Shown here: positions 6,001 to 9,000 of the stretch, piece by piece
Layout: every line of letters begins with the position of its first letter
Position numbering within the stretch: the first letter of the stretch is position 1
Source of the DNA: Escherichia coli
Lineage (GTDB): Bacteria > Pseudomonadota > Gammaproteobacteria > Enterobacterales > Enterobacteriaceae
Strand: one strand, 5' to 3'
Assembly (NCBI RefSeq): GCF_030013595.1
Contig: NZ_CP122768.1
Length of the DNA stretch: 64,000 nt
Position numbers: made by a program

Positions 6001-9000
6001 ACGCTATACGATGTCGCAGAGTATGCCGGTGTCTCTTATCAGACCGTTTCCCGCGTGGTGAACCAGGCCAGCCACGTTTCTGCGAAAACGCGGGAAAAAG
6101 TGGAAGCGGCGATGGCGGAGCTGAATTACATTCCCAACCGCGTGGCACAACAACTGGCGGGCAAGCAGTCGTTGCTGATTGGCGTTGCCACCTCCAGTCT
6201 GGCCCTGCACGCGCCGTCGCAAATTGTCGCGGCGATTAAATCTCGCGCCGATCAACTGGGTGCCAGCGTGGTGGTGTCGATGGTAGAACGAAGCGGCGTC
6301 GAAGCCTGTAAAGCGGCGGTACACAATCTTCTCGCGCAACGCGTCAGTGGGCTGATCATTAACTATCCGCTGGATGACCAGAATGCCATTGCTGTGGAAG
6401 CTGCCTGCGCTAATGTTCCGGCGTTATTTCTTGATGTCTCTGACCAGACACCCATCAACAGTATTATTTTCTCCCATGAAGACGGTACGCGACTGGGCGT
6501 GGAGCATCTGGTCGCATTGGGTCACCAGCAAATCGCTCTGTTAGCGGGCCCATTAAGTTCTGTCTCGGCACGTCTGCGCCTGGCGGGCTGGCATAAATAT
6601 CTCACTCGCAATCAAATTCAGCCGATAGCGGAACGGGAAGGCGACTGGAGTGCCATGTCCGGTTTTCAACAAACCATGCAAATGCTGAATGAGGGCATCG
6701 TTCCCACTGCGATGCTGGTTGCCAACGATCAGATGGCGCTGGGCGCAATGCGCGCCATTACCGAGTCCGGGCTGCGCGTTGGTGCGGATATCTCGGTAGT
6801 GGGATACGACGATACCGAAGACAGCTCGTGTTATATCCCGCCGTTAACCACCATCAAACAGGATTTTCGCCTGCTGGGGCAAACCAGCGTGGACCGCTTG
6901 CTGCAACTCTCTCAGGGCCAGGCGGTGAAGGGCAATCAGCTGTTGCCCGTCTCACTGGTGAAAAGAAAAACCACCCTTCCGCCCAATACGCAAACCGCTT
7001 CTCCCCAGGCGTTGGCAGATTCTTTAATGCAGCTGGCGCGACAAATTTCCCGACTCGAAAGCGGGCAGTTAGCGCAACGCAATTAATGTGAGTCAGCTCA
7101 CTCATTAGGCACCCCAGGCTTTACACTTTATGCGTCCGGCTCGTATGTTGTGTGAAATTGTGAGCGGATAACAATTTCACACAGGATACAGCTATGACTA
7201 TAATTACGGATTCACTGGCCGTCGTATTACAACGTCGTGACTGGGAAAACCCTGGCGTTACCCAACTTAATCGCCTTGCGGCACATCCCCCTTTCGCCAG
7301 CTGGCGTAATAGCGAAGAGGCCCGCACCGATCGCCCTTCCCAACAGTTGCGCAGCCTGAATGGCGAATGGCGCTTTGCCTGGTTTCCGGCACCAGAAGCG
7401 GTGCCGGAAAGCTGGCTGGAGTGCGATCTTCCTGAGGCCGATACTGTCGTCGTCCCCTCAAACTGGCAGATGCACGGTTACGATGCGCCTATCTACACCA
7501 ACGTGACCTATCCCATTACGGTCAATCCGCCATTTGTTCCCGCGGACAATCCGACGGGTTGTTACTCGCTCACATTTAATATTGATGAATGCTGGCTACA
7601 GGAAGGCCAGACGCGAATTATTTTTGATGGTGTTAACTCGGCGTTTCATTTGTGGTGCAACGGGCGCTGGGTCGGTTACGGACAGGACAGCCGTTTGCCG
7701 TCTGAATTTGACCTGAACGCATTTTTACGCGCCGGAGAAAACCGCCTCTCGGTGATGGTGTTGCGCTGGAGTGACGGCAGTTATCTGGAAGATCAGGATA
7801 TGTGGCGGATGAGCGGCATTTTCCGTGACGTCTCGTTGCTGCACAAACCGACCACACAAATCAGCGATTTCCATGTTGCCACTCGCTTTAATGATGATTT
7901 CAGCCGCGCGGTACTGGAGGCAGAAGTTCAGATGTGCGGCGAACTGCGCGATGAGCTGCGGGTGACGGTTTCTTTGTGGCAGGGTGAAACGCAGGTCGCC
8001 AGCGGCACCACGCCTTTCGGCGGTGAAATTATCGATGAGCGTGGTGGTTATGCCGATCGCGTCACGCTACGTCTGAACGTCGAAAACCCGGCGCTGTGGA
8101 GCGCCGAAATCCCGAATCTCTATCGTGCGGTGGTTGAACTGCACACCGCCGACGGCACGCTGATTGAAGCAGAAGCCTGCGATGTCGGTTTCCGCGAAGT
8201 GCGGATTGAAAATGGTCTGCTGCTGCTGAACGGCAAGCCGTTGCTGATTCGCGGCGTTAACCGTCACGAGCATCATCCTCTGCATGGTCAGGTCATGGAT
8301 GAGCAGACGATGGTGCAGGATATCCTGCTGATGAAGCAGAACAACTTTAACGCCGTGCGCTGTTCGCATTATCCGAACCATCCGCTGTGGTACACGCTGT
8401 GTGACCGCTACGGCCTGTATGTGGTGGATGAAGCCAATATTGAAACCCACGGCATGGTGCCAATGAATCGTCTGACCGATGATCCGCGCTGGCTACCCGC
8501 GATGAGCGAACGCGTAACGCGAATGGTGCAGCGCGATCGTAATCATCCGAGTGTGATCATCTGGTCGCTGGGGAATGAATCAGGCCACGGCGCTAATCAC
8601 GACGCGCTGTATCGCTGGATCAAATCTGTCGATCCTTCCCGCCCGGTGCAGTATGAAGGCGGCGGAGCCGACACAACGGCCACCGATATTATTTGCCCGA
8701 TGTACGCGCGCGTGGATGAAGACCAGCCCTTCCCGGCTGTGCCGAAATGGTCCATCAAAAAATGGCTTTCGCTGCCTGGAGAACTGCGCCCGCTGATCCT
8801 TTGCGAATATGCCCACGCGATGGGTAACAGTCTTGGCGGCTTCGCTAAATACTGGCAGGCATTTCGTCAGTACCCCCGTTTACAGGGCGGCTTCGTCTGG
8901 GACTGGGTGGATCAGTCGCTGATTAAATATGATGAAAACGGCAACCCGTGGTCAGCTTACGGCGGTGATTTTGGCGATACGCCAAACGATCGCCAGTTCT

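What the first reader, a model, noticed from the sequence alone, without database searches (positions are those of the whole stretch)
7085..7210. Point differences in the lac control region and lacZ N-terminus relative to the canonical K-12 sequence
Seen against the well-known K-12/pUC sequence: CAP-site centre TTAG to TCAG; TATGCTTCCGG to TATGCGTCCGG between -35 and -10; GTGGAATT to GTGAAATT next to O1; SD AGGAAACAGCT to AGGATACAGCT; lacZ codons 2-3 ACC ATG to ACT ATA (MTMIT becomes MTIIT). The core -35, -10 and O1 are intact. Inference: a divergent natural lac allele; the SD and codon-3 changes could alter translation initiation.
Basis: partly seen in the sequence, partly recalled or inferred. 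Interest (0 to 1): 0.3.

Follow-up and report, generated by a model that had tools for sequence, protein, structure and literature searches.

The report
Natural variant lac operon control region

Summary
All six differences from K-12 MG1655 are present at the stated positions: 7094 T>C, 7134 T>G, 7155 G>A, 7187 A>T, 7199 C>T and 7202 G>A. The -35, -10, O1, O2, the CAP half-sites and the AGGA Shine-Dalgarno core are unchanged.

The differences are not unusual. Among 5,426 complete E. coli genomes the window's allele is carried by 47%, 19%, 82%, 41% and about 20% at the first five positions. ACT-ATA (Met3Ile) is carried by 1.8%. Escherichia outgroups carry the window's base at 7094, 7155 and 7187, and both non-coli outgroups do at 7134, so K-12 looks derived there. 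Only Met3Ile is derived on the window's side.

The intergenic region differs at 3.3% of sites, against 5.8-7.4% at fourfold-degenerate sites of lacI, lacZ and lacY. This fits purifying selection. Predicted effects on the mRNA leader are small and depend on the length folded.

It also hits a key base of O3, with a published matrix penalty of +2.8 to +7.0 kBT. It occurs in 2 of 5,426 complete genomes, but the exact protein is on about 105 public contigs. This is an ordinary natural allele of low interest.

The parts
5989..7086 (+). lacI coding sequence with a GTG start, 365 codons instead of 360. Changes versus K-12 are D132N, T141A, A331P, R340Q, V353I, and stop361Leu followed by AQRN.
   Evidence: Translation and comparison with K-12. 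RefSeq annotates the same 1098-nt CDS (WP_074398049.1) in strain HCP5S3_I2. The exact protein is on about 105 contigs.
7064..7084 (+). Auxiliary operator O3, variant GGCAGTTAGCGCAACGCAATT. It matches the K-12 O3 at 20 of 21 bases; the difference is operator position 7.
   Evidence: Pattern location. The O3 sequence and its -9.7 kBT binding energy come from Barnes et al. 2019, PMC6375646. The matrix penalty for G>T at this position is +2.8 to +7.0 kBT.
7070..7070 (+). G>T at -86. It turns the lacI stop TGA into TTA (Leu) and changes the O3 half-site GTGAGC to GTTAGC.
   Evidence: Alignments. It is present in only 2 of 5,426 complete genomes. All outgroups have G.
7084..7105 (+). CAP (CRP) site TAATGTGAGTCAGCTCACTCAT, centred at -61.5. 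The half-sites TGTGA and TCACT are intact. The T>C at 7094 is position 11, in the uncontacted central spacer. The new lacI stop TAA (7084-7086) overlaps the first bases of the site.
   Evidence: C at 7094 is carried by 2,548 of 5,426 genomes and by all three outgroup sequences.
7120..7149 (+). lac P1 promoter: -35 TTTACA (7120-7125), an 18-bp spacer carrying the T>G at 7134 (-22), and -10 TATGTT (7144-7149).
   Evidence: G at 7134 is carried by 1,024 of 5,426 genomes and by both non-coli Escherichia outgroups.
7155..7155 (+). G>A at -1, immediately upstream of the transcription start at 7156 and of O1.
   Evidence: A is carried by 4,457 of 5,426 genomes and by all outgroups, so the K-12 G is the minority, derived state.
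7156..7176 (+). Primary operator O1, AATTGTGAGCGGATAACAATT, identical to K-12.
7183..7187 (+). Shine-Dalgarno AGGA (7183-7186), unchanged, followed by the A>T at 7187 (+32). The spacing to the ATG is still 7 nt.
   Evidence: T at 7187 is carried by 2,219 of 5,426 genomes and by all outgroups.
7194..10268 (+). lacZ, 1024 codons and intact. Codon 2 is ACC>ACT (7199, synonymous) and codon 3 is ATG>ATA (7202, Met3Ile). There are 22 amino-acid differences from K-12 in all, at 97.2% nucleotide identity.
   Evidence: ACT-ATA occurs in 98 genomes, ACT-ATG in 970 and ACC-ATA in none. All outgroups have ATG at codon 3.
7557..7577 (-). Auxiliary operator O2, AAATGTGAGCGAGTAACAACC, identical to K-12 and centred at +412.
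   Evidence: exact match, with none expected by chance.

Best explanation
This is the ordinary E. coli lac regulatory region in one of the species' natural haplotypes. It works as the textbook system does. CAP-cAMP at -61.5 activates P1, and LacI represses at O1 with help from the auxiliary operators. lacZ is translated from AGGA-N7-ATG. The six listed differences are inherited single-base polymorphisms that avoid every contacted core position. Three or four of them are the ancestral Escherichia state that K-12's lineage lost. ACT at codon 2 is a common synonymous variant. Met3Ile arose inside the ACT-bearing clade and marks a small group of genomes, 1.8% of the total. That group includes one strain named 405 and an O102:H6 strain, which I take from memory to indicate ST405. 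Residue 3 lies in an N-terminal stretch known to be dispensable for beta-galactosidase. I expect the combined effect of the six changes on expression to be small. That expectation is inferred, not measured. What is particular to this window's clone is a seventh change, 7070 G>T. It extends LacI by five residues (LAQRN) and weakens O3 16- to about 1,000-fold by published energy matrices. The window's clone is closest to two UK pig isolates.
For: All differences are confirmed and the core elements are identical to K-12. Allele counts in 5,426 complete genomes are: 7094C 2,548; 7134G 1,024; 7155A 4,457; 7187T 2,219; ACT-ATG 970; ACT-ATA 98; ACC-ATA 0; 7070T 2. The ACT/ATA counts show Met3Ile nested inside the ACT-bearing genomes, and the falling counts overall fit vertical descent. 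Outgroups carry the window's base at 7094, 7155, 7187 and 7226, but ATG at codon 3 and TGA at the lacI stop. Intergenic divergence is 3.3%, against 5.8-7.4% at fourfold sites. Strain 7/2 has the identical control region apart from 7070. Razo-Mejia et al. 2014 (bioRxiv 10.1101/003772) surveyed 91 strains and found that natural lac-promoter SNPs fall mostly at positions with weak regulatory effect. lacZ, lacY and lacA are intact.
Against: No expression data exist for this haplotype. The codon after AUG and leader structure are known to modulate lacZ translation, and one folding context predicts an RBS up to 2.3 kcal/mol easier to open, so a few-fold effect is not excluded. The allele counts come from a clinically biased set of complete genomes and are not phylogenetically weighted. 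Ancestral states rest on only two non-coli Escherichia genomes and one divergent E. coli.
Confidence: 0.85

Rival explanations
1. One reading: the change next to the SD (+32 A>T) and the codon 2-3 changes (ACT ATA) retune lacZ translation initiation in this lineage, through altered leader structure, the effect of the codon after AUG, or loss of the in-frame ATG at codon 3.
For: In a 73-nt context the predicted opening energy of +24..+51 falls from 7.7 to 5.4 kcal/mol. ATG3 lies 13 nt from AGGA and is removed. Effects of the second codon on lacZ expression are established knowledge (Looman et al. 1987, recalled from memory).
Against: In a 98-nt context the difference is only 0.2 kcal/mol. AGGA and its spacing are unchanged. 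Neither A nor T at +32 pairs with the anti-SD. +32T is carried by 41% of genomes and ACT by about 20%, and +32T looks ancestral. Only ATA is rare.
Confidence: 0.15
2. The functionally relevant change in this allele is none of the listed six but 7070 G>T. It disables O3, so the O1-O3 loop and the O3 roadblock that autoregulates lacI are lost. It also adds LAQRN to the LacI tetramerisation end. The clone would then run the lac switch with about 3-fold more repressor and no upstream loop.
For: The base is position 7 of O3, which is base pair 4 of the half-site. Base pairs 4 and 5 are the most affinity-determining (Poelwijk et al. 2006, PMC1464816). Sort-Seq matrices give +3.8 kBT (O1-based), +2.8 kBT (O2-based) and +4.6 to +7.0 kBT (O3-based). 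O3 is already the weakest operator at -9.7 kBT. Semsey et al. 2013 (PMC3711431) show that the O3 roadblock holds LacI at about one third of its full level. In their four-state model, weakening O3 raises LacI from 30 to 80-90 nM and leaves repression near 1,300-fold. The allele persists in nature on about 105 contigs.
Against: Everything here is predicted, not measured. The O3-based matrices are noisy. The same model predicts almost no net change in basal repression, so the phenotype may be invisible. Peptide fusions to the LacI C-terminus are tolerated (peptides-on-plasmids, recalled from memory), so the tail is probably neutral. LacI in this clone also carries D132N, whose effect is unknown.
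Confidence: 0.35
3. The differences are sequencing or assembly errors, or engineered or vector-derived sequence.
For: None. Exact lacO-lacZ-alpha matches in unrelated genome assemblies show that vector contamination exists in public data.
Against: The identical 231-bp region occurs in two complete genomes and four independent draft assemblies. 98 complete genomes carry ACT-ATA. The context is chromosomal, mhp-lac-cyn-cod-prp. Vectors carry the K-12 sequence, not this one.
Confidence: 0.01

Closest known systems
E. coli K-12 MG1655 lac control region (lacI 3' end, O3, CAP site, P1, O1, lacZ leader)
   Same: Same synteny. The -35, -10, 18-bp spacer length, O1, O2, CAP half-sites, AGGA and ATG spacing are all identical.
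   Different: There are seven single-base differences between 7070 and 7202. LacI is 365 aa instead of 360. LacZ has Met3Ile.
lac control haplotype of strain 7/2 (NZ_CP023820.1) and about 100 other complete genomes
   Same: Identical to the window across 6550-7489 apart from one base.
   Different: It has the normal TGA stop and an intact O3, with G at the position matching window 7070. The flanks outside 6550-7489 differ by about 2%.
Natural lac-promoter polymorphism surveyed by Razo-Mejia et al. 2014 (bioRxiv 10.1101/003772)
   Same: The same kind of variation: SNPs at positions that weakly affect regulation, with O3 the site most often altered among natural isolates.
   Different: That survey covered 91 strains. 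I could not check whether this exact haplotype or 7070T was among them, because the alignment is an image.
Engineered O3-destroyed lac constructs (Oehler et al. 1990, EMBO J 9:973; recalled from memory, paper not held)
   Same: Loss of the O1-O3 loop with O1 and O2 retained. The recalled result is about 1,300-fold repression falling to about 440-fold at fixed LacI, which matches the fixed-LacI figure of 436-488.
   Different: Here a single natural base change does it, lacI is in cis so autoregulation is also relieved, and the same base removes the lacI stop codon.

Membership tests
E. coli lac operon regulatory region | Gene order lacI-lacZ-lacY-lacA, with the control region between lacI and lacZ | tested here: met
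   ORFs and RefSeq annotation of the near-identical genome.
E. coli lac operon regulatory region | Class I CAP site TGTGA-N6-TCACT centred at -61.5 | tested here: met
   7084-7105. Both half-sites are intact, and the only change is at central position 11.
E. coli lac operon regulatory region | P1 promoter TTTACA-18 bp-TATGTT | tested here: met
   7120-7149. The hexamers and the spacer length are identical to K-12.
E. coli lac operon regulatory region | Primary operator O1 at +1..+21 and auxiliary operator O2 at +412 | tested here: met
   Both match exactly.
E. coli lac operon regulatory region | Auxiliary operator O3 (GGCAGTGAGCGCAACGCAATT) centred 92 bp upstream of O1 and overlapping the lacI stop codon | tested here: inconclusive
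   The site is at the right place (7064-7084) and matches at 20 of 21 bases. The mismatch is at a key contact, with a predicted penalty of +2.8 to +7.0 kBT. Whether it still binds LacI in a loop cannot be tested here.
E. coli lac operon regulatory region | LacI of 360 aa ending ...LESGQ | tested here: not met
   365 aa ending ...LESGQLAQRN. The rest of the protein is 98.6% identical to K-12 LacI, with 5 substitutions.
Functional lacZ translation start | AGGA Shine-Dalgarno 7 nt upstream of the ATG, and an open 1024-codon frame | tested here: met
   7183-7186, the ATG at 7194, and the ORF 7194-10268.

The most novel reading that the evidence does not exclude
A naturally circulating E. coli clone, closest to two UK pig isolates and with its exact LacI on about 105 public contigs, carries a single G>T that does two things at once. 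It abolishes the lacI stop codon and it knocks out auxiliary operator O3. That makes it a natural test of what O3 looping and roadblock autoregulation of lacI are for. The predicted outcome is about 3-fold more LacI, which also carries a 5-residue tail, with near-unchanged basal repression but a shifted induction threshold.
Probability: 0.3. Interest if true: 0.3.

Novelty: already known. Interest (0 to 1): 0.1.

Why it matters
It matters very little as a discovery. It shows that the textbook K-12/pUC lac sequence is one haplotype among several, and at some positions the derived one, so departures from it in wild strains should not be read as anomalies. The practical point concerns primers, reporters and quantitative lac models built on K-12. 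They may not transfer exactly to other lineages: 82% of genomes have A at -1, and about 40-47% differ at the CAP centre and at +32. The stop-loss/O3 allele is a small curiosity. It could serve as a natural control for models of LacI autoregulation.

Tried and rejected
1. I first inferred from the identity bands that K-12-like control regions were rare, at most 490 records. One search corrected this: 2,684 records are at least 99% identical to K-12 over the same 231 bp. K-12 therefore belongs to a major haplotype family, and only its -1 G is a minority state.

2. I tried to obtain the Razo-Mejia thermodynamic parameters and the list of natural SNPs. Both are images and are not held as text. I used the simpler four-state model of Semsey et al. 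instead.

3. Oehler et al. 1990 and Abo et al. 2000 are not held. Their results are cited from memory or through Semsey et al. 2013.

4. I hoped the 'lac_upstream' matrix in the Barnes supplement was a CRP matrix that could score the 7094 change. Its preferred bases spell a LacI operator, not a CRP site. The CAP-centre change therefore has no quantitative score.

5. RNA folding of the leader gave length-dependent answers, so I do not rely on it.

6. Most hits of the genome-contig scan for O1 were vector contamination in unrelated taxa. Only three loci were usable as outgroups.

7. Two literature searches failed on term-length rules.

Full report
**What is there.** Window 5989-12250 holds lacI, lacZ, lacY and lacA on the + strand. 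mhpR and mhpA lie upstream, and cynX, cynS, cynT, cynR, codBA and prp lie downstream. This is the normal E. coli chromosomal arrangement.

- The first 25 kb is nearly identical to two UK pig faecal isolates, HCP5S3_I2 and LCP30S3_I5.
- It differs from HCP5S3_I2, the one I aligned in full, by 7 SNPs and one 50-bp deletion, none in the lac control region.
- The next best complete genomes are only 98.5% identical.

**Check of the observation.** With +1 at 7156 they are:

| Window position | Change | Position and context |
|---|---|---|
| 7094 | T>C | -62, position 11 of the 22-bp CAP site, next to its dyad axis |
| 7134 | T>G | -22, inside the 18-bp spacer |
| 7155 | G>A | -1 |
| 7187 | A>T | +32, the base after AGGA |
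| 7199 | C>T | Thr2, synonymous |
| 7202 | G>A | Met3Ile |

The -35 (7120-7125), -10 (7144-7149), O1 (7156-7176), AGGA (7183-7186), the CAP half-sites and O2 (7557-7577) are identical to K-12.

7070 G>T is the middle base of the lacI stop codon.

**How common each allele is.** I queried the 5,426 complete RefSeq E. coli genomes with short megablast probes. Each probe was built so that every possible 28-base seed spans the variant base, so only genomes carrying the window's allele can match.

| Allele | Genomes of 5,426 | Share |
|---|---|---|
| 7155A | 4,457 | 82% |
| 7094C | 2,548 | 47% |
| 7187T | 2,219 | 41% |
| 7134G | 1,024 | 19% |
| ACT-ATG (codons 2-3) | 970 | 18% |
| ACT-ATA | 98 | 1.8% |
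| ACC-ATA | 0 | 0% |
| 7070T | 2 | 0.04% |

- Met3Ile is found only on the ACT background, and the steadily falling counts fit descent within a phylogeny rather than repeated origins.
- The full six-difference haplotype occurs in strain 7/2 and about 100 other genomes.
- The names in that group include a strain called 405 and an O102:H6 strain. I take these, from memory, to indicate ST405.
- K-12's own haplotype family is also large: 2,684 records are at least 99% identical to it. This corrected my first impression that K-12-like sequences were rare.

**Which state is ancestral.** A scan of GTDB species representatives for the O1-leader sequence returned three usable loci among many vector contaminants: E. 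whittamii, Escherichia sp. E1V33 and a divergent E. coli. In the alignment:

- All three carry C at 7094, A at 7155, T at 7187 and A at 7226.
- Both non-coli species carry G at 7134.
- All three keep ATG at codon 3 and TGA at the lacI stop.

Three or four of the six differences are therefore states that the K-12 lineage changed. Only Met3Ile and 7070T are derived on the window's side. Position 7199 is ambiguous.

**Is the region unusually diverged?** It is not. The lacI-lacZ intergenic region differs from K-12 at 4 of 122 bases (3.3%). Fourfold-degenerate sites differ at 6.0% in lacI, 7.4% in lacZ and 5.8% in lacY. The control region is thus more conserved than silent sites, and its changes avoid the contacted positions. 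This matches the survey of 91 strains by Razo-Mejia et al. 2014, which found natural lac-promoter SNPs mostly at weakly regulating positions, with O3 the exception.

**Likely functional effect of the six changes (inferred).**

- The CAP change lies in the central spacer, which the protein does not contact directly (established knowledge). I could not score it because no CRP matrix was available as text.
- The -22 and -1 changes lie outside the hexamers and outside O1.
- Neither A nor T at +32 pairs with the anti-Shine-Dalgarno sequence, and the spacing is unchanged.
- The predicted energy to open +24..+51 of the mRNA differs between the K-12 and window leaders by 0.2 kcal/mol in a 98-nt context and 2.3 kcal/mol in a 73-nt context. 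This is too context-dependent to support a claim.
- Residue 3 of beta-galactosidase lies in an N-terminal stretch that tolerates replacement in fusion proteins (established knowledge).
- LacZ has 22 substitutions in all. None is at a catalytic residue I know of (E461, E537, Y503, from memory).

**The change that is rare.** 7070 G>T has two consequences.

*LacI is extended.*
- TGA becomes TTA and LacI reads on to a TAA at 7084-7086. The protein is 365 aa and ends ...LESGQLAQRN.
- RefSeq annotates it this way.
- The exact protein is on about 105 contigs in public collections.
- The four independent draft assemblies I fetched carry the identical control region. The allele is therefore real and circulating.

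*O3 is weakened.*
- The same base is position 7 of O3. The sequence GGCAGTGAGCGCAACGCAATT and its -9.7 kBT energy are.
- Position 7 is base pair 4 of the GTGAGC half-site. Base pairs 4 and 5 are the most important for repressor-operator affinity (Poelwijk et al. 2006).
- Published Sort-Seq energy matrices for LacI (Barnes et al. 2019, supplement) give these penalties for G>T at this position:

| Matrix reference | Penalty (kBT) |
|---|---|
| O1 | +3.79 |
| O2 | +2.80 |
| O3, split 1 | +6.97 |
| O3, split 2 | +4.64 |
| O3, split 3 | +6.66 |

- These values mean 16- to about 1,000-fold weaker binding at what is already the weakest operator.

*What this should do to regulation.*
- O3 supports the O1-O3 repression loop.
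- O3 also roadblocks lacI transcription, which holds LacI at about one third of its unregulated level (Semsey et al. 2013).
- I put the weakened O3 into their four-state model. LacI rises from 30 to 80-90 nM and repression stays near 1,300-fold. With LacI held fixed, repression falls to about 440-490-fold.
- The predicted phenotype is therefore more repressor and no upstream loop, with little change in basal repression. All of this is model-based inference.
- Peptide fusions to the LacI C-terminus are known to be tolerated (from memory), so the tail is probably harmless.

**Comparison with what is known.** This is a member of the E. coli lac regulatory region. Every defining element was tested and met, with two exceptions: the 360-aa LacI length (not met) and O3 (20 of 21 bases, function uncertain). 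The six listed differences are already present in public genomes and are of a kind already surveyed.

**Verdict.**
- The reading as a natural allele is supported.
- The translation-initiation idea is untested and weakly motivated.
- Interest is low.
- The most novel reading left open is that 7070T makes this clone a natural O3-knockout with unregulated lacI. I give that about a 30% chance of a measurable phenotype, and modest interest if true.

Noticed in passing
window 7070 (lacI stop codon, inside O3 at 7064-7084): G>T removes the lacI stop (TGA>TTA), giving a 365-aa LacI ending LAQRN. It also changes the O3 half-site GTGAGC to GTTAGC. Only 2 of 5,426 complete genomes carry it, but the exact protein is on about 105 public contigs. 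The published matrix penalty is +2.8 to +7.0 kBT.
   Followed up: yes
window 18577/18578, in prpE (minus strand; ORF 18548-20338): The window lacks 50 bp that its closest genome has; the other 24 genomes listed span about 25,050 bases or more for the 25,000-base query, consistent with their also having it. The missing segment ends in GGATCGCGT, which also precedes the junction, as expected for a slippage deletion. It shifts the frame of the prpE 3' end, giving a 596-aa ORF instead of about 628 aa.
   Followed up: partly
window 6382 (lacI codon 132) and 5967 (lacI leader): LacI D132N and a G>A in the lacI 5' untranslated leader (GGAAGAGAGTC to GGAAGAAAGTC) are specific to this clone. Neither is in K-12 or in strain 7/2. 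Their effects are unknown.
   Followed up: no
window 6550-7489: Across this 940-bp stretch the window and strain 7/2 differ at one base only (7070), while the flanks on both sides differ by about 2%. This looks like a shared haplotype block or a recombination tract covering the lacI 3' end, the control region and the lacZ 5' end.
   Followed up: no
loci L004-L021 (genome-contig scan): Exact O1-lacZ-leader matches occur in assemblies labelled SAR11, Streptomyces, Pelagibacter, Raphidiopsis, Syntrophus and others. These are almost certainly cloning-vector contamination in public genome records.
   Followed up: no
locus L006 (E. coli SCPM-O-B-8794, a GTDB representative), aligned to window 7108-7137: This E. 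coli representative has an unusually divergent stretch from just upstream of the -35 into the spacer (AAGCTCCCC...CCCTGTGCTTTC) compared with all the other Escherichia sequences aligned.
   Followed up: no
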